Of a DNA stretch of 64,000 bases, positions 3,830 to 49,356 are shown one piece after another. The position numbers and the translations under genes were made by a program. The notes under the pieces were generated by a model. It made no database searches. It worked only from the letters and a program-made list of their open reading frames with translations, and was not told the origin of the DNA. Within the stretch, counting starts at the first letter, position 1; each line of letters starts with the position of its first letter. The stretch is from a virus, in IMG/VR virus record IMGVR_UViG_3300028563_000018, positions 8,873-72,872 of that record; one strand, written 5' to 3'.

Positions 3830-3913
3830 TTCTTGTAGGGTCGGGCGGAACAGAAGTACCAGCCTCATCGGGACCTGCCGGCAAAGCGTCTCCCGAGCCG
3901 AACCCCACAGGAG
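3830..3913 (+). ncRNA. structured leader motif, copy 1
   Basis: UCGGGA/UCCCGA stem around CCUGCCGGCAAAGCG (3874-3888); AACCCCACAGGAG tail contains the RBS of 3924. Confidence 0.65.
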
Positions 3914-3923
3914 TTGCAGATCA

Positions 3924-4544
3924 ATGAGTATTTTCAATCGCGACCGCGATCAAGAGGAAGAGCAAGTCGAAGCTGGTGACGGGAGTGAGGGCATCGCAGC
4001 CCCGGTAGTCGCCGACCCGCCGGTCGAGGCCGTCGAAGCTGTCGAAGAGCAGCAGGACGAAATCGACGGTTGGGAAGACCCCGAGCCTGCGCACGCGAGC
4101 ACGGAGTCGCCCGAGGAACCGCCGACCGAGGAAGAGCAGCTCGACGACGACGAGCGTCGCCCTCGCGGGTGGCTCGAGTCCGACATCGAGAAGCTGATCA
4201 AGGCGATCCAGTCGGGTGAGGTGACGATCGATCCGGTCGGCGCTCCGCTCACGCCGCACCTTCTGTCCAAGACCCTCACTAACGTCGAGGGGCTCGCGAA
4301 GGCGCCGTCCACTGGTGCCGTCTCGGCGGTGCTCGACCGGTGGGTCAACGTCGGTGCGGCCGAGACGAGTTCCAGGCCGTACGCGTTTGTCGACTTCACC
4401 CCCCAGGCGAAGGAGCACGGTATCGCCGGTCTCAAGCAGGCAATCAAGGACCAGCGCAAGGCCGAGAAGCAGGCCCAGAAGGACGCCGACACCGAGGCAG
4501 CGAAGCAGGCCGCGATCGAGGCTGCGGCTGACGCGGCGGAGTAG
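3924..4544 (+). CDS. hypothetical protein with acidic N-terminus and possible winged-helix core
   Basis: 206-aa ORF, AGGAG RBS, strongly GC3-biased codons. Confidence 0.8.
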   Translation: MSIFNRDRDQEEEQVEAGDGSEGIAAPVVADPPVEAVEAVEEQQDEIDGWEDPEPAHASTESPEEPPTEEEQLDDDERRPRGWLESDIEKLIKAIQSGEVTIDPVGAPLTPHLLSKTLTNVEGLAKAPSTGAVSAVLDRWVNVGAAETSSRPYAFVDFTPQAKEHGIAGLKQAIKDQRKAEKQAQKDADTEAAKQAAIEAAADAAE

Positions 4545-4613
4545 TTACCAGGTGGAGCGGCCGGTGTACTACGCTTGGTGCCGTCTCCCTTACCTTGTCG
4601 GGTTGGTAGACAC

Positions 4614-4645
4614 GTGGAGGGCCTGGAGCGATCCAGGTCCTTCAC
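4614..4645 (+). terminator. 14-bp hairpin with GCGA tetraloop, no U-tract
   Basis: GTGGAGGGCCTGGA-GCGA-TCCAGGTCCTTCAC (includes G-U pairs), downstream of the 3924 gene. Confidence 0.5.
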
Positions 4646-4664
4646 CGCGTCAGGTTGCGATCTC

Positions 4665-4994
4665 GTGACGGACCTGATCGTCCAGGAAGACCCCGAGCCC
4701 GACCCCCTTCGCGGCGGCAAGCATTACGAGCACACGCCGGAGCTACCCCCGAGGCCGTTCCTCTACTCGATCGATCAGGTCGCCGCCCTTCTGTACGTCG
4801 ACCTGGGCTACCTGAAGAGCAGGTACCTCCACTACGAGGGACGCACGCTCGGGCCGCACTACCCCGACTACATCTTGGTTCGCAACATCGCACCGAAGGG
4901 CAACGCTCCCGACTGGCGATGCGCTGAGCAGGAGTTCGCGCGCTGGTTGAAGCACAAGGGGTTTCGACTGCACCAGCGCGGGTGGGTGTCCTAA
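4665..4994 (+). CDS. putative HTH DNA-binding protein
   Basis: FLYSIDQVAALL...WRCAEQEFARWL resembles an excisionase/MerR-type HTH with an insertion; start uncertain. Confidence 0.55.
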   Translation: MTDLIVQEDPEPDPLRGGKHYEHTPELPPRPFLYSIDQVAALLYVDLGYLKSRYLHYEGRTLGPHYPDYILVRNIAPKGNAPDWRCAEQEFARWLKHKGFRLHQRGWVS

Positions 4995-5129
4995 AACAAC
5001 ACGAGAACAACGGATACTGAGCACAAGACACTCGAATTTGCTCACGCCACAAGCAGAAATAAAGATTTTCTAGGAATGACGGTTACCAGCTTGAAGCGTG
5101 ATCTATCACGCAATAGCTTGCTTTCTTAC

Positions 5130-5195
5130 CAGGGGGCGGCGCGTCCTGCCGGCAAAGCGAACGCGCGCCACCTGCCTTTGCCGAACCCACAGGAG
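5130..5195 (+). ncRNA. structured leader motif, copy 2
   Basis: About 13-bp stem 5130-5144/5161-5174 around CCUGCCGGCAAAGCGA; AACCCACAGGAG tail is the RBS of 5205. Confidence 0.7.
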
Positions 5196-5204
5196 TACCT
5201 TCAG

Positions 5205-6026
5205 ATGGCCCTTGTTCCCAGCGCGCCCGGACTCGAGAACTACACCGGGATGGACGACCTCAGTCCTGAAGACCTGACGATGCCTCGGTTGGCAATCGGG
5301 TCGAACGAGAACGCAGGTGTGTTCATCGACAGCCAGACCTCGCAGAAGTTCAGCGAGGTCGACATCATCATCCTCGGGATCATCAAGCAGCGGATCTTGT
5401 GGCCCGCCACGATGGGCGACCAGAAGTCGAACCCGCTGTGCCGGTCGTACGACTTCGACCGCGGTCATCCCGACGAGGACAAGTTCCCCTGGAAGCAGAG
5501 CGGCTACGACAAGGCCGTCATCCTCGGAACCGAAGACAAGACGATCCCCTGCGACGCGTGTCCGTTGAAGGACTGGGGTTCGCACCCGGCGCGCGAGAAG
5601 GTGCCGTGGTGCAACGAGCAGATCGTGCTCGCGATCCTGTTGGCGCCGAGTTACTCCCCGGCGATCCTGACAGTGCAGGGATCGGGGCTCAAGCCGACCA
5701 GGGCGTACCTGACGAGCTTCACGCGTGATCGGCTCCCGCCCTTCAACTGCGTCACGCACGTCGAATTGGACGTGAACACGCGCGGCACCGTCACCTACAG
5801 CGTGCCGAGGTTCAGCAAGCCCGGCGAGCAGACCGACGTCGACAAGTACGGCGAGTACGTCACGACGTACGAGGGCATGCGCAGGTTCGTGCAGACGCCC
5901 AGGTCTCGTGATGACGAGAATACCGACGCGACTCCCGCTACGTCTACGGCGAAGAGCACGCCCGCACCAGCTCCCGTAGCTGCGAGTGATGTCGATGCCG
6001 ACGACGACGGGCCGCTTCCCTTTTAG
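5205..6026 (+). CDS. ssDNA-binding-like protein
   Basis: Acidic C-terminal tip DDDGPLPF (SSB-like), low-complexity linker, Cys cluster CRS...CDACP...PWC; start set by AGGAG RBS. Confidence 0.7.
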   Translation: MALVPSAPGLENYTGMDDLSPEDLTMPRLAIGSNENAGVFIDSQTSQKFSEVDIIILGIIKQRILWPATMGDQKSNPLCRSYDFDRGHPDEDKFPWKQSGYDKAVILGTEDKTIPCDACPLKDWGSHPAREKVPWCNEQIVLAILLAPSYSPAILTVQGSGLKPTRAYLTSFTRDRLPPFNCVTHVELDVNTRGTVTYSVPRFSKPGEQTDVDKYGEYVTTYEGMRRFVQTPRSRDDENTDATPATSTAKSTPAPAPVAASDVDADDDGPLPF

Positions 6027-6033
6027 TTCTTCG

Positions 6034-6130
6034 CGCGCGTCCGGCTCCCCCAATACGGACGTGCGTTGGGTCGGCCCCATCGCTCGCGAGGACCCCCAAC
6101 CTCGTTGAGCATCCCCGCTGGGGCCGACCC
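6034..6130 (+). ncRNA. twin hairpins with CCCCCAA loops (candidate sRNA or 3' element)
   Basis: 10-bp stem 6034-6043/6056-6065; perfect 12-bp stem 6068-6079/6119-6130 with an inner stem. Confidence 0.45.
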
Positions 6131-6177
6131 GCCGTTCTATCTCCGCGTGGAAACCCAACCCGATATCGAGGTACGGC

Positions 6178-6396
6178 ATGTGGTTCCTGAAGGCAGTTGC
6201 TAGAGGTAATGCCGGCAAGACCCTGGACGGCAACGGCTGTCTCGCCGTGATCATCGTCATCGCTTTGGTTTGGGTCATCTCTGCCTTCTGGTGGGGATGG
6301 CTCTTCATGGTCATCACTGGTGCGTGCGGATGGCACATCCCGTACTTCCCGACAGGCGTTGCGTTCGGGTTCCTTCTCTCAATGGTGCTCGGCTGA
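6178..6396 (+). CDS. small membrane protein
   Basis: Two to three hydrophobic segments; GAGG RBS. Confidence 0.7.
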   Translation: MWFLKAVARGNAGKTLDGNGCLAVIIVIALVWVISAFWWGWLFMVITGACGWHIPYFPTGVAFGFLLSMVLG

Positions 6397-6752
6397 TGGT
6401 CTGGGCCATGTTCGGCTACGGCAGCGAGGACGAGTACAACGCCGCCCGCGCTGAACGCGAGAAGCAGATGGACGAGGCCCAGGCGCAGAGCGACCTGACC
6501 AACCATCAAGTCGTGCGCGTGATGAACGAGCTCGACGAAGAGCACTGCACGGTGTTCTACAAGGTGCTCGCCCAGGTCCGTGATGCTGGGAACGTGAGTT
6601 CCCTGGAAGCAGTCACCGCGGCCTTCTGGATCGGCGTGCTCCGTGGGCGCCTCAATGCCGTGTTCGGCGTGTGCATGTCGTGCGGCAAGAAGCACGACGA
6701 CGAGTTCGCACGTCTCATCGAAAACCAACCCGACAAGGACACTCCCTCATGA
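6396..6752 (+). CDS. hypothetical protein
   Basis: TGATG coupling; C-terminal CMSCGKKH. Confidence 0.7.
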   Translation: MVWAMFGYGSEDEYNAARAEREKQMDEAQAQSDLTNHQVVRVMNELDEEHCTVFYKVLAQVRDAGNVSSLEAVTAAFWIGVLRGRLNAVFGVCMSCGKKHDDEFARLIENQPDKDTPS

Positions 6753-6940
6753 AGAAGCGCACCCTGCGCGTATGGCTCGCGAGCCATCCGTGGCACAAGG
6801 ACGACGTGCGTGGCGTGGCGATCTTCACCGTTTTGGCGGGGGCGCTCTACTGCTACGACCGTCCGTTGGACGACGACAATGCCGAGTGCGTGCACGTGTA
6901 CGCGCCGGGTGCGTGGGTCAGCGCGGAGTGGTTGGGATGA
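6749..6940 (+). CDS. hypothetical protein
   Basis: ATGA coupling, AAGGA RBS. Confidence 0.55.
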   Translation: MKKRTLRVWLASHPWHKDDVRGVAIFTVLAGALYCYDRPLDDDNAECVHVYAPGAWVSAEWLG

Positions 6941-7116
6941 AAATCAAGAGCCGAGTCGAGGCACGCAATCAGATCCTCGACGCCGCAAACCGAGCGCGTC
7001 GAGAACCGAGCCATCCGTGGCTGACGATGAAGCATCTTCAGCGCGCGGTATTTCGGTGTCGCCAGCGCGGGCTCGTCAGCGCTCAGACACTCGTCGACGC
7101 GGGATTCAGATCATGA
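6937..7116 (+). CDS. hypothetical protein
   Basis: ATGA coupling at both ends. Confidence 0.55.
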   Translation: MKIKSRVEARNQILDAANRARREPSHPWLTMKHLQRAVFRCRQRGLVSAQTLVDAGFRS

Positions 7117-8567
7117 CCCTCACGACGGCGACCCGCGGGTCGCTCAAGAAGATCCGTGATGATCTCGCGCTGTACCCCCACCAGATCGACGGGATCCGAA
7201 CCCTCGCGCGCCGCAGCAGCTTCCTTCTCGCCGACGAGATGGGGCTCGGCAAGAGCATCCAGGCGCTCACGGTCGCAGCGATCGACTTCGAGAAGAACCC
7301 GAACGCTCGCGTGCTCATTGTGGCGCCCGCCTCCCTGAAGTGGAACTGGCAAGCCGAGATCTTGGCCTTCACCTACTTCAACTGCCTGATCCTGGACGGC
7401 ACGCGCAAGCAACGCGACATGCAGTTGCTCCAGTTCTCCAGTAACGAGTTCGACATCCTGATCGTCAACTACGAACAAGTCGTCGCCCATCTCGACGACA
7501 TCAACGCTCTGCACTTCAACATCGTGATCGCCGATGAAGCGCACCTGATCAAGTCACCGAAAGCGAAGCGCACGAAGGCTCTCCAGGGCATCGAGGCTGA
7601 CCGGTTCTTCCTGCTGACCGGGTCGCCGTTGCTCAACCAGGCCAACGATCTCTGGTCGCTGATCTACCGGATCGACCCGAATCTGTTCCCCAAGTATTAC
7701 TCGTTCATCCAGAGATTTTGCGTCATGGGTGGCTACCAGGGCAAGCAGATCGTCGGTGTGAAGCACCACCGAGAGCTGTCCGAGAAGCTCAACTCCGTCA
7801 TGCTGCGGCGCGAGAAGAAGGACGTGCTCGATCTGCCCGACAAGATCCGCATCCCGATCGTAGTGGACCTTCATCCCGAGCAGGCGAAGCTCTACAAGCA
7901 GGCCGTCGAGGAACTCCAGATCACGTTGCCGGATCGCCCGGATGCGATGGAACTTGAGAACGCGCTCACGAAGATGCTGCGCCTCAAGATGATTTGCGGG
8001 ACGACGGCCTGCATTCCCGGCTACCCCGACCATTCTTCCAAACTCGATATTGCTGTCGAGAGAGCGTGCGAAGTGATTGCGGGGGGCGAGCCAGTCGTAA
8101 TCTTCACGCAGTTCCGCGAGGTACAGCGGTGCATGGTCGAGCGGCTCAAGAAGTTGGGTCACGAATCGTTCGTACTCAACGGCGATACGCCGATGAAGGA
8201 TCGCGTGCCGACCGTGCAGCGATGGGAGGCGACAGCGACGCGCCAGGGCCTCACCCCGAAGAACCCAAGCGCACTTGTCGCCATGCTGCAAGTCGCCGGC
8301 GTCGGGCTCAACATGACCGCTGCCTCGACTGCGATCTTCATCGACAAGCTCTGGGTGCCCGCGCTGAACATCCAGGCCGAAGATCGTCTGCACCGCATCG
8401 GGCAGAAGAGCACGGTGACCATCATCGAGGTCATCGCTCGTAAGACCGTCGAGCAGCGCGTGCTCCAGATCTTGCAACGCAAATCGAAGTTGTTCGGCAC
8501 GTTGATCGGAGACAACGACAAGTTCAAGCGCGCTCTCGTGGAGAGCCTGATGGATGAGGACTTCTGA
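7113..8567 (+). CDS. SNF2-family DNA helicase
   Basis: LADEMGLGKS (I), DEAH (II), LTGSP (III), GVGLN (V), QAEDRLHRIGQ (VI). Confidence 0.95.
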   Translation: MTLTTATRGSLKKIRDDLALYPHQIDGIRTLARRSSFLLADEMGLGKSIQALTVAAIDFEKNPNARVLIVAPASLKWNWQAEILAFTYFNCLILDGTRKQRDMQLLQFSSNEFDILIVNYEQVVAHLDDINALHFNIVIADEAHLIKSPKAKRTKALQGIEADRFFLLTGSPLLNQANDLWSLIYRIDPNLFPKYYSFIQRFCVMGGYQGKQIVGVKHHRELSEKLNSVMLRREKKDVLDLPDKIRIPIVVDLHPEQAKLYKQAVEELQITLPDRPDAMELENALTKMLRLKMICGTTACIPGYPDHSSKLDIAVERACEVIAGGEPVVIFTQFREVQRCMVERLKKLGHESFVLNGDTPMKDRVPTVQRWEATATRQGLTPKNPSALVAMLQVAGVGLNMTAASTAIFIDKLWVPALNIQAEDRLHRIGQKSTVTIIEVIARKTVEQRVLQILQRKSKLFGTLIGDNDKFKRALVESLMDEDF

Positions 8568-8776
8568 TGCCCCGCACGGCTGGCGAACTCACGCAGAAGG
8601 CAGAGACGCCCGAGCAGGTGTTCTACACGATCCAGCAGGTCGCCGTGATGTTCCAGGTGAGCGCCGAGACGATTCGGAAGTGGATCAAGGAAGACAAGCT
8701 CAACGCGAAGAAGTACGGCAAGAACTGGCGCATCACGCGGCAGAACATCACGGATTTTGTGGAGGCAAGCAAGTGA
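8567..8776 (+). CDS. excisionase-type HTH DNA-binding protein
   Basis: YTIQQVAVMFQVSAETIRKWIKEDKLNAKKYGKNWRI matches the HTH_17 pattern. Confidence 0.88.
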   Translation: MPRTAGELTQKAETPEQVFYTIQQVAVMFQVSAETIRKWIKEDKLNAKKYGKNWRITRQNITDFVEASK

Positions 8777-8883
8777 ATGAGATCGATGACCCACTGAGCC
8801 CCGCCAAGGGAATCATCCTCGGCGTGGTACTCGGGAGCGTGTTCTGGCTGGTCGTCGCGCTCGTCGCCTGGAGGGCACTGTGA
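8773..8883 (+). CDS. small membrane protein
   Basis: Single TM helix; GGAGG RBS; GTGA coupling. Confidence 0.55.
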   Translation: MNEIDDPLSPAKGIILGVVLGSVFWLVVALVAWRAL

Positions 8884-9509
8884 TCATCTTGGATTGCGAG
8901 ACAACAGGCCTTGACCCCAATGAAGATCTCATGCTCGAGATCGCGCTGCTGCACGTCACTGACGACCTGACGCGAGTGCTCAGTCGGTTCGACAGCCTCA
9001 TCAGGTTCGATTTCGCCTGGTGGGGTGGGCAGATCAACTCCCGCAAGACCGGCGAGCCGCATCCGGCACATGTCGTGATGGAGATGCACCAGAAGTCCGG
9101 CTTATGGGACGAGCTGGAGTTCACGAAGCACTCGGCGCCGCATCTGCGCACCGTCGAGGAGAGCATCTTCACCTGGTTAGACGACCAGGAGTCGCGCTTC
9201 GGCATCGAGGTCGCACAGGAACCACTCGTGGGTTCGACAATCTCGTTCGACCGGTCGTTCCTGAAGGTCCACATGCCTGATGTCGAGAAGCGGTTCCACT
9301 ACCGCAACATCGACGTGTCGAGCGTGAAGGAACTGACGCGCCGCTGGCGCGCGCCGGTGTACGCACACCTGCCGGAATCTCGCAAGATCCACCGAGCCGT
9401 GCCCGACTGTTACGACACGCTGAACGAACTTCTCTTCTACAAGCAGCGCGTGCTCGACCTACTGAGCACGCCGTACACGCCCTTCAAGCACGAATGGCCC
9501 GAGACGTGA
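8880..9509 (+). CDS. orn: oligoribonuclease (DEDDh exonuclease)
   Basis: LDCETTGLD, MHQKSGL, FHYRNIDVSSVKEL, HRA..D: Orn-type motifs. Confidence 0.88.
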   Translation: MIILDCETTGLDPNEDLMLEIALLHVTDDLTRVLSRFDSLIRFDFAWWGGQINSRKTGEPHPAHVVMEMHQKSGLWDELEFTKHSAPHLRTVEESIFTWLDDQESRFGIEVAQEPLVGSTISFDRSFLKVHMPDVEKRFHYRNIDVSSVKELTRRWRAPVYAHLPESRKIHRAVPDCYDTLNELLFYKQRVLDLLSTPYTPFKHEWPET

Positions 9510-9685
9510 GCGCGCCCTACGTCAATCGCATCGAGCACGTCGAGTGTGGTGTTGACGAGATCGACGCGAAGATTGCCGACTACCTGCGTGGCTGGCGACT
9601 GACGCACGTTGTGCCGCCGCTTGAAGGGCAGTCGACCGTCAGCAGGTGGCATCTTTTCTTTCAACGCGAGACGGAGGACGCGTGA
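9506..9685 (+). CDS. hypothetical protein
   Basis: GTGA coupling at both ends. Confidence 0.5.
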   Translation: MSAPYVNRIEHVECGVDEIDAKIADYLRGWRLTHVVPPLEGQSTVSRWHLFFQRETEDA

Positions 9686-32143: not shown

Positions 32144-33163
32144 TTACGCGACAGCGGCGAGGTCGTTGTAGAGGGTCGCGGTGAGGATCGGCGTCGCTGC
32201 GACCGGGCGCACGGCCTGGATCTCGATGTCGAACTCGATGACGTCGTCACCGCTGGGCTGCAAACCGAACGGCTTGATGACGGCCGACCCAATGTCGAAC
32301 GAGCACGAATACAACGTCGCCGCGGTACCCGTGATGAACTCGTAGGTCTGGACCGTGATGACGACGTGCTCGTGTGTGACGAGCCCGCCAGCGGCAGTGG
32401 CGGAAGACGTGCCGAACACGGCCTCCCGGTAGAACGCCGCCGACGCGGGACGCACCTTGGCGCCACAGGTGACCAGGCGCCGCTTCTCGGTAGTGTCCCC
32501 GAGGAACAGTGAGCCGATTCGGAAGTCGTTATCCTCGAGCTGGTTGTTGATGTCGAAGCTGAACGTCTTCGCCGGAAGCGCAACACCGCCGAGGGTGATC
32601 GTGCAGTTCGACGCCACCACTGCGGGCGTGTTGTCGAAGCTCGGGCTCGCCGTCGCCGACGCGGTGGGAACTGCGATCTGCGAGAGAGCGACGAGGTCGC
32701 AGGTGCCCATGAGCAAGCCAGTGGCGTCGGCCTCCAGGTGAAGCGCGTTCACCTTGGCGTCGGTGTACCGGAAGTGGTCGAAGTTATTGCCGATGTTCTC
32801 TTCGACGGAGAGCCAAGGAAGGTTGCTCACGTCGACCGGAGTCATGACGTGCTTCATGGCGCCGGACTCGGGGTTGTTGTTGGTGTCAGTGTTCGTCCCG
32901 AGTGCTCCGTAGAGCAGCGTCGCGAACGAATCCATGCGGGGGTAGAAGGCGTACTGCCCCTTGAATGCGATCGGGCCGAGGTACGCGTCCACCACGTCGC
33001 GACCGCCACCGATTTCGGCGTCGGGGATGATCAGGTCGCGCGTGCCTGCAAGCGCACCACTGCGCGTCTTCATGAACACGCCACCGCTGCCGGGGCTGCG
33101 GTAGGTGCCCTTGGACACCTGGGTGCGGAAACCAACGCTGCCCGACTGAGCGGTGAACCCCAT
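32144..33163 (-). CDS. major tail protein
   Basis: 339 aa from MGFTAQ; tail-tube position; F..DINNQLE motif. Confidence 0.85.
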   Translation of the reverse strand: MGFTAQSGSVGFRTQVSKGTYRSPGSGGVFMKTRSGALAGTRDLIIPDAEIGGGRDVVDAYLGPIAFKGQYAFYPRMDSFATLLYGALGTNTDTNNNPESGAMKHVMTPVDVSNLPWLSVEENIGNNFDHFRYTDAKVNALHLEADATGLLMGTCDLVALSQIAVPTASATASPSFDNTPAVVASNCTITLGGVALPAKTFSFDINNQLEDNDFRIGSLFLGDTTEKRRLVTCGAKVRPASAAFYREAVFGTSSATAAGGLVTHEHVVITVQTYEFITGTAATLYSCSFDIGSAVIKPFGLQPSGDDVIEFDIEIQAVRPVAATPILTATLYNDLAAVA

Positions 33164-33171
33164 GATCTGCC

Positions 33172-33219
33172 TCGCTGTGGGTTTGTGCGGCCCGTTCGCT
33201 TTGCCGGCAGTGGGCCTGC
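33172..33219 (-). ncRNA. structured leader motif, copy 3
   Basis: GCAGGCCC/GGGCCGC stem, loop CUGCCGGCAAAGCGAA, tail AAACCCACAGCGAGGCAGAUC-AUG. Confidence 0.7.
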
Positions 33220-33230
33220 GGTTTAACTTC

Positions 33231-40540: not shown

Positions 40541-40541
40541 G

Positions 40542-40909: not shown

Positions 40910-40927
40910 TCTCTCAGCCCCCCGAGA

Positions 40928-42100
40928 TCAGGTAGCAAGCACCTCGAGCACATAGGACAGGTCGAGGTGAGGGAACACCGGGAACGCCTTGATGCCGGTG
41001 CCTGCGTCGATGCCCCACGGGTCTTGCGAGGGCGGCGTCTCCCACTCGTAGTACCCGGAGGTCCAGTTGCCCTCGGGGTGTGGCGAGGTGAGCGTCTTGC
41101 CCCAACCCATCGCGTCGTCGAGCGCGTCGACCGACTGCTGCGAAGGCAGGAACAGGATCTTGTTGTCCGGCGAGAAGCGGTGCATGGTCCGCGTCGTCGC
41201 ACCGTGCGCCCGAGTGAAGAACACCGAGTCGTACGGCTGAATCGAGATGCCTGTCGCTCGCTGGAACACGGCGAGTGCGGCTTGGATGCCGTCGCCCCAG
41301 TCGGGCAGCACGTACCGAGGGTCGATGACCCCCGACGACGGACCACCAGCGACCGCCATGCCGGTGAGCGCAGCGAACTTGGAGCTCGTGACGATGTTGC
41401 GGATGACCTTCTCGGAAGCGAGAGCACGAGTGATCTCGACGCCGTAGTTGTCACGCATGAACTGCTTGACGGTGAGAGCGTTGCCGATTGGGTCGGCAGA
41501 GGTGCTGTCCCACGGCGTCACCGACGCGCCAGCCGAAGTCGTGGACAACGGAGCGCCACCGGTCTGCTGACCCGCCGGACGCTTGTAGTCGACGCTCAGG
41601 ATGACCTTGCCGTCGTTGTAGGCGATCACGCCTTCCCACATGGCCTGCATGATCAGCCACTCGAGACGGTTGTCGAGCTTCTTGCGCCGAAGGACCGCGT
41701 CACGCGCGTACCGACGATTGAAGTCGTCGAGGATGCCCGTCGTGATGGTGAGCGGAAGCGCGGACGGAAGCAGACCGTTGAGGTAGATCGCCTCCTGATA
41801 CTTCGACACGTCGCTCGCCTGGTAGTGGTCCTTGATCGCCCAGTCGATGAGCGACGCCTGCCCCGTACCGAAGGTGTCTTCCTTCGCTGCGAGTTCGGAC
41901 TCAGCGTCCTCTGCGCGAGCAGAGGCCAGACCGTCGGCCGTGTTCTGCACGTACTGGAAGATCACGTCATCGCTGTTGACGCTCTCAAACGGTGCGTACA
42001 GGTTGAGCCCGATGTGATCCTCAGGGAAGGAGCGCTCGCGGATGAGCCCGAGCATCTCTTCCTTGCGAACCAAACGATCCTGTGACGGGAACGTCGCCAT
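40928..42100 (-). CDS. major capsid protein (gpE-like)
   Basis: 390 aa after the decoration gene; RLEWLIMQAM..G, DPI, terminal DP......G..AFP. Confidence 0.9.
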   Translation of the reverse strand: MATFPSQDRLVRKEEMLGLIRERSFPEDHIGLNLYAPFESVNSDDVIFQYVQNTADGLASARAEDAESELAAKEDTFGTGQASLIDWAIKDHYQASDVSKYQEAIYLNGLLPSALPLTITTGILDDFNRRYARDAVLRRKKLDNRLEWLIMQAMWEGVIAYNDGKVILSVDYKRPAGQQTGGAPLSTTSAGASVTPWDSTSADPIGNALTVKQFMRDNYGVEITRALASEKVIRNIVTSSKFAALTGMAVAGGPSSGVIDPRYVLPDWGDGIQAALAVFQRATGISIQPYDSVFFTRAHGATTRTMHRFSPDNKILFLPSQQSVDALDDAMGWGKTLTSPHPEGNWTSGYYEWETPPSQDPWGIDAGTGIKAFPVFPHLDLSYVLEVLAT

Positions 42101-42109
42101 CTTCCGAAT

Positions 42110-42160
42110 CTCCTCGTACCGTGGGTTTGTGACGGAGTCGCTTTGCCGGCAGGCCCGTCA
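42110..42160 (-). ncRNA. structured leader motif, copy 4
   Basis: UGACGGG/UCCGUCA stem, loop CCUGCCGGCAAAGCGAC, tail AAACCCACGGUACGAGGAG (capsid RBS). Confidence 0.7.
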
Positions 42161-42177
42161 GGGATTGATCTTGCGTG

Positions 42178-42717
42178 TTACGACGGCAGCGGGAACTGGC
42201 CGTAGTCGGGCCCGAGGACCGCGGTTGCGGCCTGGCGGAAGATGATCTGCATCTTGGCGCCCTGAAAATCGGTGAGCGCCAAAATCGAGTCGGTCACGAG
42301 CTGGTCGAGCGTCTTCTGCACGCCGGACTCGTATCCGTGGACATTGGCGGAGTTGCCAACCCCTTCGTAGACGATCGCGATGTCCACATCGCGCTCGTTC
42401 AACTGCCAGGGCAGGAACGTGTTGTTGATGCCGATGATGTTCGCCTTCGTCTGGCGGCCATCCGAGGCACCACTGTCGAAGGGACCGACCTTGCCGACGT
42501 CGGCTGCGACGGTCCCACCAGCGGCGCTGGTGATCTTCGCCATGATCTGGCCGGTGTCGAGAATCACCATCGCGTTGCCGTCGATCGTGACACTCGGGCA
42601 AACCGCACACGCGACAGTCCACGACTCGAAGCGCAGACCCTTCGTGCTGCCGAGCCACTCGTTCTTGCCGAACGGCGTGCGGTAGTTCGGTCCCTTTTGG
42701 AAGCGGCCGGTGGTCAT
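42178..42717 (-). CDS. head decoration protein
   Basis: G..MAKIT...GP.D..ASDGRQ; between protease/scaffold and capsid genes. Confidence 0.8.
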   Translation of the reverse strand: MTTGRFQKGPNYRTPFGKNEWLGSTKGLRFESWTVACAVCPSVTIDGNAMVILDTGQIMAKITSAAGGTVAADVGKVGPFDSGASDGRQTKANIIGINNTFLPWQLNERDVDIAIVYEGVGNSANVHGYESGVQKTLDQLVTDSILALTDFQGAKMQIIFRQAATAVLGPDYGQFPLPS

Positions 42718-42763
42718 GCTGACTCCTCGTGATCTCTTTCAGGAAACTGGTGGAAACGCGAAC

Positions 42764-43828: not shown

Positions 43829-43887
43829 GAGTGAGCACGATAAATGGACGTCTTACGAGTGCGCCACGGTTGCACGCAAATCTTTAT

Positions 43888-44157
43888 CTAAATAACGCGC
43901 GCCAGCACTCTCGGGATAGGTTCATCAGGTTGAACCTCGACGCGGTCTTTGCCAACAATGACCTGCGTCCACCTGAGACATTCCCGGCATGCGACGTCCA
44001 CAGTGCCGGCCGTCACGACGACTTCACCGAACACGCGACCCTGCTTGAACACCTTCAGGTGGACATACGCCTCACCGCGTTCGGTGATACCGTAGACCGC
44101 GAGTTTGGGATGGCGCGAACAGAAGCAGCGCAAGTCGTGCTCTGTGCGCGCGGGCAT
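43888..44157 (-). CDS. zinc-finger protein, Mu Com-like pattern
   Basis: DLRCFCSRHPKLA...VDVACREC; coupled to the portal stop. Confidence 0.6.
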   Translation of the reverse strand: MPARTEHDLRCFCSRHPKLAVYGITERGEAYVHLKVFKQGRVFGEVVVTAGTVDVACRECLRWTQVIVGKDRVEVQPDEPIPRVLARVI

Positions 44158-45926: not shown

Positions 45927-47794
45927 GGTCTCCAGGTCGTAGGAGGCAACGGAGCACGGACACCCGAAGCCCCCATAAATGCGGGGTGCGAGAGGCCGGA
46001 TCCGCCAACTGCAACTTGTTGTTCCTGTCGCTCTTGCCGACGGTTCTCAAACGAGACGACTTTGCGTCGAAAGGCTCGATCGCCCATCAGCTTGTAAGTG
46101 ACAGCCGCTACAGCATCGGCTACGTCCTTGGAGCCGCGCAAGGCTGGGTGGTCGATCTTCTTGCCCTGATCGACGAGTTCAGACATCTCTTTCAAGATGA
46201 TCGGCACCAACTCCGTCGAGCCATGATCGATGTGAACCATGTAAGGAGGCAATTCGATGCGGTCTTCGTACAGAGCGTCGCGCAGGTCGTAGTAAGGCAC
46301 GAGATCCTTGTCGACCGAAACAACCTCACTGAAGATTCGACGCGCCTGCAACTGCTGGCGCGTGTCGACGCCCTGGAAGCCGTCGAGGCTCACGAACTTC
46401 AACTTGAACTTTCGATAGTCCTTCAACGAATAGATGAACTGGCGAACAGCTTGCAGGTATACCTCGCCACCTGCGGGAGCCTTCACGCGGTAGCAGAGGT
46501 CGATGACGATGTAGGGCTTGAGTTCGCCGCCGACTTCCTCGACGCCCTGAACGTGACCCATCGCGAACCCAAGGCTGTCGCCCTTGGCGCTGTAGGCGAT
46601 GTCGATGTGACCGACACGCGGGATCGAATCCGTCGCCATGAAATCGCGATCGAGAATTCCCTCCGGCGACACCGGCGACACCGGGCCGTATCGTTGCTGC
46701 CAGCGATCGATCGCTTCCTCGATCTTGTGCGGCATGCTGATGAATGGATCGCCGACCGCCGGCGGGATGCCAGCGAGGTCTTTCAGTGCCTTCTCGGGCG
46801 CCGAGTCGAACTCGCGCTTGTAGAGCGTCGGGATTCTGATGATCGTGTCGCTCGAGCCGAGCACCGTCGCGAGCTGTTCGGTGATGACCTGCTTGCGCTT
46901 CGTGTCGTACGGAAAGGTGTGGTACTCGCCACACGTAGCGCCGACAGCAAGCGCCTCATTCTCGGGGTGCGGGCCAACCTTCTTGCACTGATACTGCTCA
47001 TGCTTGAGCCCGTACGACTCCCAAATCGTCATACGCTTCGCGTAGGCGTCGTCCCGATCGCTGAACTCTTCAAACATCCGGTGAGCGAACCCGTCCCCGC
47101 TCTTCATCTGCCCGATGACGAGCACGAAACCCTTGTCGCCGAACCGGGAATCGACACGGTTGGCGATGGTCTCGTAACCGATCTGCGCGTAGTCCTTGGT
47201 CGCCGTGACGATGTGCGAGTCGGCCTCGTCGAGGATGCCGCCCAGGATGTTGTAGCCCTCAAAGGTCGTCTCGTGACTGTCGCCAGGAAGGATCCAGATC
47301 TCTTTCGGAAATCGAAGTTGGTTCTTGAAGATCGGATCGTACGGGAAGTTCTGAAACCACCGCGAGTGCTTGATCCGTGCCTTAATATCGCCGAAGACGA
47401 CTTCCTTGGCTTGCGTCTCACTCGTCGACATCTGCATGAAGGCGATGCGCGAACCGGGCAGCAGGTTGTAGTACTCCTGCGGATCTTCCATGCAGAGCAC
47501 GTAGTGGGAGAGATAACTCAGAATCACCGATGCAATTGTCGTCTTGCCGATCCCAATCGCGCCGGTCAAGATCCCGCGCGCGACCTCCGTGATGTGGTCG
47601 CCTGAGGTCTCCTCGCCAAACAGATCAACGAGACACTCCTTGATGGAGGTGCGGATCCGAGCGGCGACATCGAGGTAGCCGACATCGAGAAACTCTAGGA
47701 TCGTTGCCGGCCGTTGCTCAAACTGGGAATTCTTCTTCAGCCAGTTGAGTTCGTAGACCTGGTCAAAACTCGGAGTCGTCAGGCTCTTCGCCAT
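45923..47794 (-). CDS. terL: terminase large subunit
   Basis: Walker A GAIGIGKT, Walker B ILDEAD, nuclease HIDIA...D and KDVADAVA; start chosen by RBS. Confidence 0.92.
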   Translation of the reverse strand: MAKSLTTPSFDQVYELNWLKKNSQFEQRPATILEFLDVGYLDVAARIRTSIKECLVDLFGEETSGDHITEVARGILTGAIGIGKTTIASVILSYLSHYVLCMEDPQEYYNLLPGSRIAFMQMSTSETQAKEVVFGDIKARIKHSRWFQNFPYDPIFKNQLRFPKEIWILPGDSHETTFEGYNILGGILDEADSHIVTATKDYAQIGYETIANRVDSRFGDKGFVLVIGQMKSGDGFAHRMFEEFSDRDDAYAKRMTIWESYGLKHEQYQCKKVGPHPENEALAVGATCGEYHTFPYDTKRKQVITEQLATVLGSSDTIIRIPTLYKREFDSAPEKALKDLAGIPPAVGDPFISMPHKIEEAIDRWQQRYGPVSPVSPEGILDRDFMATDSIPRVGHIDIAYSAKGDSLGFAMGHVQGVEEVGGELKPYIVIDLCYRVKAPAGGEVYLQAVRQFIYSLKDYRKFKLKFVSLDGFQGVDTRQQLQARRIFSEVVSVDKDLVPYYDLRDALYEDRIELPPYMVHIDHGSTELVPIILKEMSELVDQGKKIDHPALRGSKDVADAVAAVTYKLMGDRAFRRKVVSFENRRQERQEQQVAVGGSGLSHPAFMGASGVRAPLPPTTWRP

Positions 47795-49145
47795 CGTCCT
47801 CAACCTCGATGACGACATCTGGGGGTGCCGGAAGTGCAACCTGCGGGTTGAACGACGCGATCAACTCAGGTGTGATCTGGTCGATCGTGTAACCCTGGCC
47901 TTTGAGTTCCTGAATCGTCCGGGCCATCTGAACCTGGGGTGTCTCGACAGCCTGTGCACTGCCACCGACACTGATTGCCACCTTTGGCCCAGTGAATCGA
48001 CCTGGAGCGAGGAGCTTCGCCATCGTCACGCCCCGGTCGAACAGGCTGTTGGCGAGCCTCGTCACTTCCGGGTCGAGAGGAGTGCCGTCTTTGCCGCCGA
48101 ACTCCACCTCAACATCAAGGGCGTGCTCGAGCCGTTCGGTGTGCACAGACAAGACCGCGCCCAGGCCGTCGATGACCTGGTCAGCGTCACGAGACCGAAA
48201 CAGCTTGGCGAGCGAGGCCGTCTCAGATTGAGGCAAGGAACACACCTGTCCGTCACGGAAGTACTTGCAACTTGGCGCCAAAGAGCACGTGTCGCAGTGG
48301 ACTTTGTCGCCGACGGTAGCATTGACTTGTTTGCTCATGGGACTCAATGTCGTCGGAATCACATGATCTTTTGCGTCAGGATCCACGACAATCTTGCCGC
48401 GCGAGCGGAATGGAATGTCCTCCTTGAAATGTTCAGCCGCCCATTCGGCACTCCGCATGTTGTAGAGCGTCCGGTTGCGTGGAACCTTCAGGTCCGCGTT
48501 CTTGAATCCGAGCAGCGCGATCCACTTGGCCCAGCGACCTACGTCCTTCTCGTGAATGCGTTTGCCGTTCGGCAGCATCACCATGTCGCCGCGACCGAGC
48601 TCGAAAGGATCCAGATCAATCGACTTGAAATCGAGCCCAAACATCACACGGAAACTCGCGAGACCCGTCATGTGCAATGTCGCCGTCGGGTATTCAGCTT
48701 GAAGATCGCGGATGGTCGAAGCAAACCGACGACCGATGCCAAGTTGCATACCGGGAGCGCTGGTGATGACGACCCGGTGTTCCTGTCCGTAAACCGGACG
48801 TTCGTGCAGCCCACAACGAGTGTCGTTGCACGCAGCCCAATCGGCGCCCACGGGGGTTGCGATCAATTCCTCCAACGTGGCGATGTCGTCGAGCTTGTAA
48901 TCCCACGTGGGATACACGGCTTTCGGCCTCGCTCGCGTCCAACCACGGCGTAGCTCGGCGGTCCCGTCAGGAGCGATGACGAGCATTCGATAGTCAAGGG
49001 GGGGCGCTAGAAAGAGATCGGCGAAGCGATCGATGTCAACGCTGCGTCGCTCAAGAAAGCTCGCGTTGAACGCGAAGAGCGTTGCCCCGTGTTCCAGTGC
49101 CTCACGCACGTACGGTTCCGCGTTGCGGTACCAGACTTCCACCAT
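47763..49145 (-). CDS. multidomain protein at the terminase-small-subunit position
   Basis: 460 aa; LHMTG...SIDLD segment, CxxCx5Cx8C cluster, helical C-terminus; overlaps terL start. Confidence 0.6.
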   Translation of the reverse strand: MVEVWYRNAEPYVREALEHGATLFAFNASFLERRSVDIDRFADLFLAPPLDYRMLVIAPDGTAELRRGWTRARPKAVYPTWDYKLDDIATLEELIATPVGADWAACNDTRCGLHERPVYGQEHRVVITSAPGMQLGIGRRFASTIRDLQAEYPTATLHMTGLASFRVMFGLDFKSIDLDPFELGRGDMVMLPNGKRIHEKDVGRWAKWIALLGFKNADLKVPRNRTLYNMRSAEWAAEHFKEDIPFRSRGKIVVDPDAKDHVIPTTLSPMSKQVNATVGDKVHCDTCSLAPSCKYFRDGQVCSLPQSETASLAKLFRSRDADQVIDGLGAVLSVHTERLEHALDVEVEFGGKDGTPLDPEVTRLANSLFDRGVTMAKLLAPGRFTGPKVAISVGGSAQAVETPQVQMARTIQELKGQGYTIDQITPELIASFNPQVALPAPPDVVIEVEDDGEEPDDSEF

Positions 49146-49284
49146 TGCGACATTGTCGCGGGCTTGCGCTCTGTCTCGGAAACGTGCAGGGCGATCCAGA
49201 ATAAAGATGTACCCCAGGCAGTTCCAGATACAACGGTGCAGTGGTTACGTTGTGAACCCGGCATGCACGCTGGGTGAGGTTCGG

Positions 49285-49336
49285 AAAAAGAAAAGGGGCC
49301 AGGGGTGCCTGCCGGCAAGCGAACCACCCCTGGCCC
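49285..49336 (-). terminator. intrinsic terminator (minus strand)
   Basis: Perfect 12-bp GC stem followed by UUUUCUUUUU on the minus strand. Confidence 0.6.
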
Positions 49337-49356
49337 AACCCACAGCGAGCAGATCC
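49296..49356 (+). ncRNA. structured leader motif, copy 5
   Basis: GGGCCAGGGGUG/CACCCCUGGCCC stem, loop CCUGCCGGCAAGCGAAC, tail AACCCACAGCGAGCAGAUC. Confidence 0.65.

What the first reader, a model, noticed from the sequence alone, without database searches (positions are those of the whole stretch)
3830..49356. Five-copy structured RNA leader on the RBS of capsid, tail-tube and SSB-like genes
Seen: five intergenic copies at 3868-3913(+), 5130-5195(+), 33172-33219(-), 42110-42160(-) and 49296-49356(+). Each has a stem, the loop CUGCCGGCAA(A)GCG, the partner strand, then AACCC(C)AC(A/G)G..GAG..AGAU. The stems differ in sequence but all pair: UCGGGA/UCCCGA, CAGGGGGCGGCGCGU/ACGCGCGCCACCUG, GGCCC/GGGCC, UGACGG/CCGUCA, GGGCCAGGGGUG/CACCCCUGGCCC. 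This is covariation around a fixed loop. All five are on the sense strand. Four run straight into the RBS and ATG of the major capsid, major tail, SSB-like and 3924 genes; the fifth is about 105 nt before the primase. The loop contains the self-complementary UGCCGGCA, and its CUG could pair with the tail's CAG/CGG as an H-type pseudoknot beside the SD. Inference: a phage-wide translational control element (protein operator, riboswitch-like switch or processing site) for high-copy proteins. I do not recognise it as a described family.
Basis: partly seen in the sequence, partly recalled or inferred. Interest (0 to 1): 0.88.

Follow-up and report, generated by a model that had tools for sequence, protein, structure and literature searches.

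The report
Repeated hairpin leader before phage genes
An uncultured Gordonia-like phage puts the same small folded RNA signal, a hairpin whose stem differs in every copy but whose loop never changes, in front of its capsid, tail-tube and three other gene units; the signal matches no catalogued RNA family, and what it does is untested.

Summary
The window holds exactly five copies, and a covariance model separates them cleanly (47-59 bits; next hit 10.6 bits). All five are on the sense strand and lie outside any gene I could assign to a family. A sixth, orthologous copy sits before the tail-tube gene of a metagenome relative (L040).

Each copy has a different stem of 5-12 uninterrupted pairs. 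Stem arms pair only with their own partner. The 13/14-nt loop and the AACCCAC box are fixed.

No Rfam family matches, even at E up to 10. The element was not found in:
- 50,697 GenBank phage records (blastn with copy 3)
- IMG/VR (exact loop-plus-box pattern)
- 99 loci of relatives
- 151 Mycobacteriales genomes
- four literature searches

New here: the 3' box is a variant of a hairpin-less start-associated box, CCAACCCGACA, found before six other early genes of the same phage. The nearest published analogue is therefore the SAS/ESAS repeats of cluster K mycobacteriophages, but here the stems co-vary and the loop is fixed, the reverse of ESAS.

Best reading (0.5): an mRNA leader whose loop is read by a trans-acting factor and which controls translation or stability. 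The proposed pseudoknot and the 'high-copy regulon' idea remain unproven.

The parts
3868..3926 (+). Copy 1. Stem 3868-3873 / 3891-3896 (UCGGGA/UCCCGA), loop 3875-3888, box AACCCCACA 3901-3909, SD GGAG 3910-3913, ATG 3924. The downstream gene 3924-4544 (206 aa) matches a PHROG named 'HTH DNA binding protein'.
   Evidence: (55.4 bits)
5130..5207 (+). Copy 2. Stem 5130-5144 / 5161-5174 (13 pairs with one mismatch and one bulge), loop 5146-5159, linker 5175-5183, box 5184-5191, SD 5192-5195, ATG 5205. In the linker, CUUUGCCG is complementary to the loop's CGGCAAAG. The downstream gene 5205-6026 encodes a predicted OB-fold protein with four invariant Cys.
   Evidence: (47.3 bits)
33161..33219 (-). 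Copy 3. Stem 33212-33219 / 33187-33193 (GC-A-GGCCC / GGGCC-GC), loop 33197-33210, box 33176-33183, ATG 33163-33161 of the tail tube gene 32144-33163.
   Evidence: (58.2 bits)
42098..42160 (-). Copy 4. Stem 42155-42160 / 42130-42135 (UGACGG/CCGUCA, with an optional inner G.U pair), loop 42139-42152, box 42120-42127, ATG 42100-42098 of the major capsid gene 40928-42100.
   Evidence: (58.7 bits)
49296..49349 (+). Copy 5. 12-pair stem 49296-49307 / 49325-49336, 13-nt loop 49309-49321, box 49337-49344. No start codon follows; the AEP primase ORF starts at 49461. The copy lies in the divergent region between the terminase-small-subunit-like gene (-) and the primase gene (+).
   Evidence: 58.2 bits; z -2.9
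2192..2201 (+). Hairpin-less start-associated box CAACCCGACA, followed by AGGAG and an ATG 12 nt after the box.
6156..6165 (+). Hairpin-less start-associated box CAACCCGATA, followed by GAGG and an ATG 12 nt after the box.
6726..6735 (+). Hairpin-less start-associated box CAACCCGACA, followed by an ATG 13 nt after the box.
4595..4604 (-). The only antisense-oriented copy of the box. On the + strand, downstream of gene 3924-4544, the RNA would read CCUUGUCGGGUUGG, the complement of the box. It is a possible trans-acting partner and was not followed up.
3791..3840 (+). Promoter-like stretch upstream of copy 1, found by eye: ATAAAGAT 3791-3798, TTGTAG 3811-3816, 18-nt spacer, TAGGGT 3835-3840. 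The consensus scan did not call it.
   Evidence: one search found 0 sigma-70-type sites in 3500-5300
5059..5119 (+). Promoter-like stretch upstream of copy 2, found by eye: ATAAAGAT 5059-5066, TTGAAG 5091-5096, 17-nt spacer, TAGCTT 5114-5119. The hairpin starts 10 nt after it. The consensus scan did not call it.
49201..49280 (+). Promoter-like stretch upstream of copy 5, found by eye: ATAAAGAT 49201-49208, TTGTGA 49250-49255, 19-nt spacer, TGAGGT 49275-49280.

Best explanation
The element is a duplicated leader cassette that works on the mRNA and is private to this phage lineage. It has two modules.

Module 1 is a hairpin. Its stem can be any sequence of 5-13 pairs, and it presents a fixed 13/14-nt loop, CUGCCGGCAA(A)GCG. 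The loop may close on itself as UGC/GCG around CGGCAA(A).

Module 2 is a single-stranded A/C-rich box, AACCCACA, just 5' of the SD. It is a variant of the phage's hairpin-less start-associated box CCAACCCGACA.

Most likely mechanism, by inference:
- The hairpin sits at or near the 5' end of the message. This holds for copies 1, 2 and 5 if the promoter-like stretches upstream are real. Copies 3 and 4 sit between cistrons of the late operon.
- There it shields the message and insulates the ribosome-binding site from upstream sequence.
- Its fixed loop is an address read by a sequence-specific trans factor, most likely a phage-encoded RNA-binding protein.
- That factor sets how well 30S subunits load on the open box-SD stretch.
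- The result is co-ordinated output of capsid, tail tube, an OB-fold SSB-like protein, an HTH-like protein and the primase unit.

Shown here: the repeats, the copy-specific complementary stems, the sense orientation, the position next to the SD, and conservation in one orthologue.

Inferred: that the element acts as RNA, that a factor binds it, and the direction of the effect.
For: - The window holds exactly five copies and L040 holds one, at 47-59 bits; the next hit scores 10.6 bits.
- Stems are unrelated in sequence but each pairs with its own partner. Own arms give 5-12 uninterrupted pairs; cross arms average 2.2; the true assignment is the best of 720 permutations.
- On the model alignment, 75% of cells pair against 44% in shuffles (0 of 500 shuffles reach it). 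All 4 scored pairs show changes on both sides. The covariation score is 0.767 against 0.280 (0 of 500).
- Among 120 chance loop-plus-box matches in bacterial genomes, a stem of 5 or more occurs in 11, of 6 or more in 5, and of 7 or more in 1. All 6 real copies have 5 or more.
- In the orthologous comparison, flanks are about 70% identical. The loop forms the longest run of identical columns, 15, and the AACCCAC box is also kept, although that alignment offsets it by a few columns. The stem is replaced: GCAGGCCC/GGGCCGC becomes GCGCCCU/AGGGCGC.
- All 6 copies are sense to the downstream gene. In 5 of 6 the SD and ATG follow within 13-20 nt of the box.
- The SD lies outside the hairpin.
- The box recurs without a hairpin before six other start codons: CAACCCGA[CT]A is seen 7 times against 0.23 expected, with a maximum of 2 in 100 simulations.
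- Spacing between loop and box varies from 11 to 24 nt with stem length. That argues against a two-box DNA site read at fixed spacing.
Against: - No RNA data exist. No RNA run holding the phage was listed, so transcription through the element, 5' ends and structure are all unobserved.
- Single-sequence folding gives the proposed hairpin as the minimum-energy fold in only 3 of 6 copies (3, 5, L040). Z-scores are +0.4 to +1.4 for five copies and -2.9 only for copy 5.
- Only two phages carry the element, so the covariation rests on six sequences, five of them paralogues.
- The stems are nearly all Watson-Crick, so nothing separates an RNA hairpin from a hairpin in single-stranded DNA except orientation and position.
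- Copy 5 has no start codon behind it.
- The genes served belong to different temporal classes (next to the integrase, replication, late structural). That is awkward for a single regulator.
- No partner was identified.
- The loop contains the 8-nt palindrome UGCCGGCA, which could also be a dimeric DNA-binding site.
Confidence: 0.5

Rival explanations
1. RNA processing and stability element. The hairpin followed by the C-rich single strand is a cleavage and protection module. A host endonuclease (RNase E type) cuts in the AACCCAC stretch. The upstream message keeps a protective 3' hairpin, and the downstream cistron (capsid, tail tube) gains its own short leader. In primary transcripts, the 5'-proximal hairpin slows 5'-end-dependent decay (RNase J/E). 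No specific trans factor is needed.
For: Copies 3 and 4 lie 11-17 nt after the stop codon of the preceding cistron inside the long late operon. Copies 1, 2 and 5 begin 10-27 nt after -10-like hexamers found by eye, which would place them near the 5' end. The hairpin never covers the SD. From recall, with no call behind it: mycobacterial RNase E prefers single-stranded sites with C just after the cut.
Against: A simple stabiliser or terminator-like hairpin has no need for a 14-nt loop that stays invariant across 70%-identity orthologues. The stems are weak in copies 1, 3 and 4 (5-7 pairs with a 16-nt loop) and the fold energies are not better than shuffles. The box also occurs without any hairpin before six genes.
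Confidence: 0.2
2. DNA-level site. The palindrome TGCCGGCA in the loop is an operator for a dimeric DNA-binding protein, or the inverted repeat is used as a hairpin or cruciform in single-stranded DNA (replication priming, recombination). The position next to start codons only reflects where intergenic space exists.
For: The loop holds a perfect 8-bp palindrome, and 5 of its 8 occurrences in the genome are in the elements. The stems are almost purely Watson-Crick, so they would form in DNA as well. Copy 5 lies in a divergent promoter region next to the primase gene.
Against: Flanks that vary yet stay complementary have no role for a protein reading an 8-bp duplex site. The palindrome's centre is not the centre of the inverted repeat. 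All six copies are sense to the gene, and the conserved 3' box merges into the SD. The loop's conserved 3' half (AAAGCG) is not palindromic. Loop-to-box spacing varies from 11 to 24 nt.
Confidence: 0.1
3. Selfish or neutral mobile leader cassette. A hairpin-plus-RBS unit has spread by recombination within this lineage, comparable to the promoter-stem-loop cassettes of T4-type phages. It persists without a regulatory role of its own.
For: Relatives lack the element at the same positions and have shorter spacers: 19 of 19 capsid relatives and 13 of 13 relatives of gene 5205. The copies fall into pairs that share the whole tail, SD and spacer: copies 1 and 2 share GCCGAACCC(C)ACAGGAGU, and copies 3 and 5 share AACCCACAGCGAG(G)CAGAUC. 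This looks like cassette duplication. Copy 5 looks like a copy that lost its ATG.
Against: Recent duplicates would also share their stems, but the stems are completely different and compensated while loop and box stay identical. That pattern means long-term selection on both. The orthologous copy in L040 shows the same pattern.
Confidence: 0.1
4. Small riboswitch-like sensor. The loop and tail fold into a compact pseudoknot that binds a metabolite and opens or closes the adjacent SD.
For: The size and layout (hairpin, conserved loop, conserved 3' tail merging into the SD) recall the smallest pseudoknot riboswitches; this resemblance is from recall. In copy 2 the linker CUUUGCCG is complementary to 8 nt of the loop.
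Against: No Rfam family matches, even at E up to 10. Loop-tail complementarity common to all copies is only CUG/CAG. The copy 2 pairing is absent from copies 3, 4, 5 and L040. In copy 2 it cannot coexist with the full 13-pair stem, because only one nucleotide links them. The element was not found in the 151 Mycobacteriales genomes sampled, where a metabolite sensor would be expected.
Confidence: 0.05

Closest known systems
[quoted passage not shown]
   Same: Both are short asymmetric repeats in an actinophage genome. Nearly all copies are in one orientation and lie a few to about 25 nt before start codons of a subset of genes. A fraction of copies carries an extra inverted repeat just upstream. 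The repeats are specific to a lineage, and their function had not been tested as of the 2025 paper.
   Different: - The sequence is unrelated: GGGATAGGAGCCC there, (CC)AACCC(G)ACA here.
- The SAS contains the SD itself; here the box lies 5' of the SD.
- ESAS arms are conserved in sequence, have a variable spacer, and their departures are not compensated, so the authors doubted an RNA hairpin. Here the arms are free in sequence and fully compensated, and the spacer (loop) is fixed.
- SAS sites are confined to non-structural genes; here capsid and tail tube carry the element.
T4 gene 32 autogenous translational operator (recalled; the review PMC3014915 was seen only in the search listing)
   Same: Both have a folded 5' element followed by an unstructured stretch that runs into the RBS. 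One copy here (copy 2) precedes a gene whose predicted fold resembles gp32 (Z 6.4 and 5.9).
   Different: The T4 element is a single-copy pseudoknot on the regulator's own mRNA. Here there are five copies on unrelated genes, no general pseudoknot, and no evidence that the OB-fold protein binds RNA.
Phage Mu Com / mom mRNA
   Same: A phage hairpin next to a start site is read by a small zinc-finger protein that changes translation.
   Different: In Mu the neighbouring structure hides the start site. Here the SD and ATG lie outside the hairpin. The candidate four-Cys protein at 43888-44157 has no Pfam match. It has homologues in 118 GenBank phage records, a collection in which blastn with copy 3 found no copy of the element.
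Lambda nut sites (boxA + boxB) and other processive antitermination leaders (recalled)
   Same: Both combine a hairpin with a free stem and a fixed loop with a conserved single-stranded box. Both are promoter-proximal, if the promoter-like stretches before copies 1, 2 and 5 are real.
   Different: The order of the modules is reversed and the loop is 13-14 nt rather than 5. There are five copies, two of them deep inside an operon, and the box is fused to the SD. No N-like protein was looked for.
Promoter-early stem-loop (PeSL) cassettes of T4-type phages (recalled; not retrieved)
   Same: Both are repeated intergenic cassettes that combine an expression signal with a stem-loop and appear to move within a phage lineage.
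   Different: PeSLs carry a promoter and are thought to act as recombination substrates. They have no fixed loop with co-varying stems.

Membership tests
Any Rfam 15 family (riboswitches, ribozymes and phage RNA motifs included) | Covariance-model score at or above the family's gathering threshold | tested here: not met
   0 matches in the whole window at gathering thresholds; at E up to 10, on loci covering copies 1-4 and L040, 5 weak hits, none at an element.
Cluster K SAS | 13-bp consensus GGGATAGGAGCCC (2 mismatches or fewer) next to start codons | tested here: not met
   The box here is AACCC(N)ACA and the sequence is unrelated.
Cluster K SAS | Asymmetric repeat, nearly all copies in the sense orientation and within a few nt to tens of nt of a start codon | tested here: met
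   The AACCC(N)ACA pattern has 12 hits in the genome, and copy 4 (AACCCACGG) does not match it. Of the 12, ten lie on the sense strand in a leader: the 6 hairpin-less boxes of the form AACCCGA[CT]A, less the GATA copy which this pattern misses, plus element copies 1, 2, 3 and 5. Nine of those ten are 12-26 nt before a start codon. Counting copy 4 and the GATA copy as well, 11 of 12 leader boxes precede a start codon; copy 5 is the exception.
Cluster K ESAS | Pair of 17-bp inverted repeats with a conserved sequence and a variable spacer; departures not compensated | tested here: not met
   Here the arms share no sequence and are compensated, and the spacer (loop) is invariant.
Intrinsic terminator | G+C-rich hairpin with a short loop, followed by a U run | tested here: not met
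   The loop is 13-16 nt and no T run follows any copy. The scan of 3500-5300 found no terminator-like site at copies 1 or 2.
H-type pseudoknot leader (gene 32 type or small riboswitch type) | Loop-to-3'-tail helix present in all members | tested here: inconclusive
   Only CUG/CAG (3 pairs, invariant bases) is shared by all copies. An 8-nt complement exists in copy 2 and a 4-nt complement in copy 1 only. No pseudoknot-aware folding was run.
Mu Com-type translational activation | The start site is occluded by structure that the bound protein relieves | tested here: not met
   The SD and ATG lie 3' of the hairpin. Predicted folds do not consistently pair them.
Sigma-70-type promoter (as a DNA-level reading of loop plus box) | Two hexamers at a fixed spacing of 16-19 bp | tested here: not met
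   Loop-to-box distance varies from 11 to 24 nt with stem length. One search found 0 promoter-like sites in 3500-5300.

The most novel reading that the evidence does not exclude
The fixed loop is the operator of a phage-private translational regulon. A phage-encoded nucleic-acid-binding protein binds the loop on five mRNAs. The best candidate is the gp32/PhiC31-gp3-like OB-fold protein, whose own message carries copy 2 and an extra loop-complementary linker. Binding would tie the synthesis of capsid, tail tube and replication proteins to the amount of free binding protein, and so to the state of phage DNA replication. This would be gene-32-style autoregulation extended to structural genes. A variant of the idea: the 8-nt self-complementary loop lets the leaders, or the free-standing copy 5 RNA, kiss each other.
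Probability: 0.12. Interest if true: 0.75.

Novelty: new variant of a known kind. Interest (0 to 1): 0.55.

Why it matters
Repeated start-associated motifs have been known in actinophages since 2011. The two papers read here (passages only) report no tested function, and the 2011 authors doubted an RNA structure because changes in the repeat arms were not compensated.

This phage offers a cleaner case. The stems are free in sequence and fully compensated, the loop is fixed, and the element sits in front of the two most abundant virion proteins. That makes an RNA-level mechanism directly testable with a handful of stem, compensatory and loop mutants. It also gives a bait (the loop) for fishing out the factor that reads it.

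If a phage-encoded factor is found, this would be a compact, portable hairpin-address system for co-ordinating gene expression in high-G+C actinobacteria. Few such tools exist for these hosts.

The limits are real. Only two phages are known to carry the element, the host is unknown, and nothing has been measured.

Tried and rejected
Searches for further members that found none:
- IMG/VR, exact loop-plus-box pattern: 1 stretch, L005. It has no stem and looks coding, so I took it as chance.
- JGI metagenomes: 16 stretches, of which only L040 is real. L030 and L039 have a 7-pair stem, but the site lies inside a 235-aa ORF on the other strand and the contigs show no similarity to the phage. I dropped them as chance.
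- GTDB genome contigs: 120 stretches. None has the SD/ATG context, and I used them as a null set for stems.
- GenBank phages, blastn with copy 3: only 18-27-nt chance matches inside genes.
- R1 on 99 loci of relatives plus the rest of the genome (1.15 Mb): best hit 16.2 bits.
- R1 on 3 and then 151 Mycobacteriales genomes: 15 of 151 had hits of 21-28 bits. I read the best 8, and all are unrelated G+C-rich stretches.
- A substitution-tolerant regular-expression scan found nothing further.

Relatives that lack the element:
- 19 of 19 capsid relatives (43-55% identity) have none before the capsid gene.
- The 80 tail-tube loci have none.
- 13 of 13 relatives of gene 5205 whose upstream region I could read have none. 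L264, the 14th locus, was cut at its start and left out. Their leaders are simply A/C-rich.
- 5 near-complete relatives show no excess of AACCCNACA: 0-2 per genome, the same as the reversed-pattern control.

Closer relatives exist as proteins only (P0002 at 81%, P0003 at 74%, and a 75,026-base contig of the same phage).

Sequencing runs: no RNA holder was listed. The contigs of four runs that I laid were the same phage at low cover, with no variant at copies 3 or 4. This gave no information on variation or expression.

Pairing with 16S rRNA: AACCCACA is complementary to 8 nt of a Prescottella 16S rRNA. However, duplex energies for loop and tail are no better than shuffles (121 and 122 of 200 shuffles do as well), so I rejected this as support.

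It is therefore not specific to phages that carry the element.

The 65-aa four-Cys ORF at 3590-3787 has no relative anywhere, so nothing can be said about it.

Sequence-level SSB assignment for gene 5205: none from Pfam, PHROGs, PDB sequences or the protein atlas. Foldseek gave no PDB match at E of 0.001 or better.

Literature: searches found no description of this element. One search returned 0 papers. Supplementary tables of the two SAS papers were not opened and may hold site lists relevant to the comparison.

ORFs that overlap the elements (49033-49452+, 49007-49387-, 3276-3908-, 3683-3937-, 32738-33226+, 42175-42732+) match no PHROG. I treated them as non-coding, which is not proof.

Full report
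**What is there.**
The window is bases 8873-72872 of a 72,872-base IMG/VR virus record, estimated 92% complete. G+C is about 57-63%. Its capsid is at most about 46% identical to those of 118 GenBank phage records of Gordonia (105), Tsukamurella (6), Rhodococcus (6) and Nocardia (1). A megablast of 6 kb against GenBank phages finds nothing.

Each has:
- a stem
- one or two unpaired bases
- the loop CUGCCGGCAAAGCG (copy 5: CUGCCGGCAAGCG)
- one to three unpaired bases
- the partner strand
- a short linker
- AACCC(C)AC(A/G)G
- an SD-like GGAG, GAGG or GAGC
- in four copies, an ATG

**More than chance.**
The 14-mer occurs four times exactly. At up to 2 mismatches 0.77 matches are expected, and 0 of 100 shuffles reach four.

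I built a covariance model from the five copies plus one orthologue and ran it with filters off. It finds six hits at 47.3-59.3 bits and nothing else above 10.6 bits. The 8.9 kb of the genome outside the window holds no copy.

**The stems are selected as pairs, not as sequences.**
- Uninterrupted pairs are 6, 7, 5, 7 and 12 in copies 1-5, and 7 in L040. Copy 2 reaches 13 pairs with one mismatch and one bulge, and copy 3 reaches 7 with a bulge.
- When the 5' arm of one copy is offered the 3' arm of another, the mean is 2.2 pairs, and 2 of 30 combinations reach 5. The true assignment is the single best of 720 permutations.
- On the model-fitted alignment, 75% of 24 cells pair, against 44% in shuffles (0 of 500). 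All four scored pairs change on both sides. The covariation score is 0.767 against 0.280 (0 of 500). The unpaired cells come from copies 2 and 3, which sit one column out of register, as the +1 and -1 slides show. That alignment was fitted to the structure, so it leans towards it.
- An outside null set: among 120 chance matches to loop plus box in bacterial genomes, a stem of 5 or more occurs in 11, of 6 or more in 5, and of 7 or more in 1.

**An orthologue.**
A 2.5-kb metagenome contig (L040) is syntenic with window 32.9-36.4 kb, with DNA about 70% identical where it aligns. It carries the element before its tail-tube gene.
- In the pairwise alignment, the loop with its flanking A is the longest run of identical columns (15).
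- The box AACCCAC is also present in both sequences, though the alignment places the two copies a few columns apart.
- The stem is a different sequence.

This is the only evidence from outside the genome.

**Against a robust fold.**
RNAfold returns the proposed hairpin as the minimum-energy structure for copies 3, 5 and L040 only. In those it adds a 3-pair UGC/GCG helix that closes a 6-7-nt apical loop. Copies 1, 2 and 4 get other weak folds. Z-scores against shuffles are +0.4 to +1.4, except -2.9 for copy 5. The case for structure therefore rests on the compensation pattern, not on stability.

**Context.**
- 40928-42100(-) is the major capsid gene (Phage_cap_E, phrog_29).
- 32144-33163(-) is the tail tube gene (Phage_tube_2).
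- 49461-50189 is an AEP primase, followed by a helicase-primase.
- Copies 3 and 4 lie 11-17 nt after the stop of the preceding cistron, inside the leftward structural operon. That operon runs from the terminase genes near 49.1 kb to about 22 kb.
- Copy 5 lies in the 315-nt divergent region between the terminase-small-subunit-like gene and the primase gene. It is about 110 nt before the primase ORF, and no start codon follows it.
- Copies 1 and 2 lie downstream of a tyrosine integrase (2724-3590), in spacers of about 135 and 210 nt.

Upstream of copies 1, 2 and 5, I see by eye a shared ATAAAGAT box. It is followed by TTGTAG, TTGAAG or TTGTGA, then a 17-19-nt spacer, then TAGGGT, TAGCTT or TGAGGT. 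If these are promoters, the hairpins start about 4-20 nt into the transcripts. The consensus scan called none of them, so this is inference.

**The downstream genes.**
Gene 5205-6026 has no Pfam family, no PDB sequence match and only a function-unknown PHROG. A model built from 25 homologues has mean pLDDT 81.9. It is an OB fold with four invariant cysteines.
- Foldseek gives no match at E of 0.001 or better.
- VIA-align gives PhiC31 RDF gp3 at Z 8.4 (153 aligned, rmsd 4.1), RB69 gp32 at Z 6.4, T4 gp32 at Z 5.9, and many other OB-fold proteins that bind single-stranded DNA at Z about 5.

'SSB-like' is thus plausible at fold level only, and these Z values are in the range the tool itself calls middling. 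Gene 3924-4544 matches a PHROG named 'HTH DNA binding protein' (E 2e-11) and nothing else.

**A second, related repeat.**
Six early genes on the + strand are preceded by (C)CAACCCGACA, or GATA in one case. The box lies 12-26 nt before their start codons, follows an A-rich stretch, and has no hairpin. Three of these are in the window, at 2192, 6156 and 6726.

CAACCCGA[CT]A occurs 7 times against 0.23 expected, with a maximum of 2 in 100 first-order Markov simulations. The seventh copy is antisense, at 4595-4604. It places the complement of the box in the RNA just downstream of gene 3924-4544.

The hairpin-linked tails are the same box without the G (AACCCACA; copy 1 has C in its place). The element is therefore two modules: a start-associated box shared with other leaders, and a hairpin add-on. 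Five near-complete relatives show no excess of the box.

**Distribution.**
The element was not found in:
- IMG/VR, by exact pattern
- 19 capsid-relative loci, 80 tail-tube-relative loci and 13 loci of relatives of gene 5205
- GenBank phages
- 151 sampled Mycobacteriales genomes

Relatives have short spacers at the same junctions, or plainly A/C-rich ones. The element is therefore a recent, lineage-private acquisition. Even so, its stems have had time to be completely rewritten.

The copies group in pairs that share tail, SD and spacer (1 with 2; 3 with 5). This suggests duplication of the whole cassette. Copy 5 looks like a copy 3-type cassette without its ATG.

**Known families.**
Rfam 15 gives nothing at gathering thresholds over the window. 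At E up to 10 it gives nothing at the elements, over loci covering copies 1-4 and L040. Four full-text searches found no description.

The nearest thing in print is the SAS/ESAS system of cluster K mycobacteriophages (passages read, supplements not opened). It has the same logic: sense-oriented boxes at start codons, some with an upstream inverted repeat. Its sequence is different. Its conservation pattern is the opposite, with arms conserved, spacer variable and changes uncompensated. It is also restricted to non-structural genes.

**Mechanism.**
The following argue for action on the sense-strand RNA at the ribosome-binding site:
- the sense orientation of 6 of 6 copies
- the fusion of the box to the SD
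- the compensated stems
- the loop-to-box spacing that varies with stem length

An invariant 14-nt loop is not needed for a mere stabilising hairpin, so something sequence-specific probably reads it.

The hairpin does not cover the SD. A Com-like unmasking mechanism is therefore unlikely, and the loop and box, separated by stems of 5-13 pairs, are probably read separately.

I commit to a leader that presents an address loop to a trans factor and keeps an open A/C-rich landing stretch for the ribosome (confidence 0.5). Processing or stability (0.2), a DNA site (0.1), a neutral mobile cassette (0.1) and a riboswitch (0.05) are the rivals.

Candidate partners were examined only superficially:
- The conserved 89-aa four-Cys protein is not specific to element-bearing phages.
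- A 65-aa four-Cys ORFan sits just upstream of copy 1.
- The OB-fold protein is encoded behind copy 2, whose linker is complementary to 8 nt of the loop.
- The self-complementary UGCCGGCA could also mediate loop-loop contacts.

None of this has been tested.

**Verdict.**
This is a real, statistically solid, uncatalogued repeated leader element with good though thin evidence for a selected hairpin. It is a new variant of the start-associated repeats of actinophages. Its function is unknown but directly testable.

Noticed in passing
genome 3945, 6007, 8315 (outside the window); window 2192-2201, 6156-6165, 6726-6735: A hairpin-less start-associated box (C)CAACCCGA(C/T)A lies 12-26 nt before six early-gene start codons. 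It is seen 7 times against 0.23 expected. Five near-complete relatives show no excess of it.
   Followed up: partly
window 4545-4645 (+): Just after gene 3924-4544, the + strand reads UCUCCCUUACCUUGUCGGGUUGG. This is the complement of the start-associated box plus AAGG, with a CU-rich stretch beside it, and a GC-rich inverted repeat follows.
   Followed up: no
window 3791-3840, 5059-5119, 49201-49280: There is a shared ATAAAGAT box, followed by -35-like TTGNNN and -10-like TAGNNT/TGAGGT hexamers, upstream of copies 1, 2 and 5. A related motif, AAGAYCC-N7-AGCT, has 6 matches in the window against 1.25 expected.
   Followed up: partly
window 5205-6026 (+): A 273-aa protein with four invariant Cys and a predicted OB fold. 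Its best structural matches are PhiC31 recombination directionality factor gp3 (Z 8.4) and RB69/T4 gp32 (Z 6.4, 5.9). It lies 1.6 kb downstream of a tyrosine-type integrase.
   Followed up: partly
window 3590-3787 (+): A 65-aa ORF with CxxC...C...C whose ATG overlaps the integrase stop codon (TGATG). It has no relative in GenBank phages or in the 5.8-billion-protein set, apart from itself on 6 contigs.
   Followed up: partly
window 43888-44157 (-): An 89-aa four-Cys protein between the portal gene and the next head gene. It has homologues in 118 GenBank records of Gordonia, Rhodococcus, Tsukamurella and Nocardia phages and no Pfam family.
   Followed up: partly
window 5175-5183 against 5150-5157: In copy 2 only, the linker CUUUGCCG is a perfect complement of the loop's CGGCAAAG. 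It cannot coexist with the full 13-pair stem because only 1 nt links them, so it could be an alternative fold.
   Followed up: no
window 33176-33183 and the other tails, against L250 (16S rRNA of a Prescottella genome): AACCCACA is complementary to 8 nt (805-812) of that 16S rRNA. Duplex energies are no better than shuffles, so I treat this as chance.
   Followed up: yes
L252, L254, L257, L259 (upstream of homologues of gene 5205): The leaders of this gene in relatives are markedly A/C-rich. L257, for example, has CAACAACCCACGAGAGG. None has a hairpin. An unstructured A/C-rich leader may be the ancestral state.
   Followed up: no
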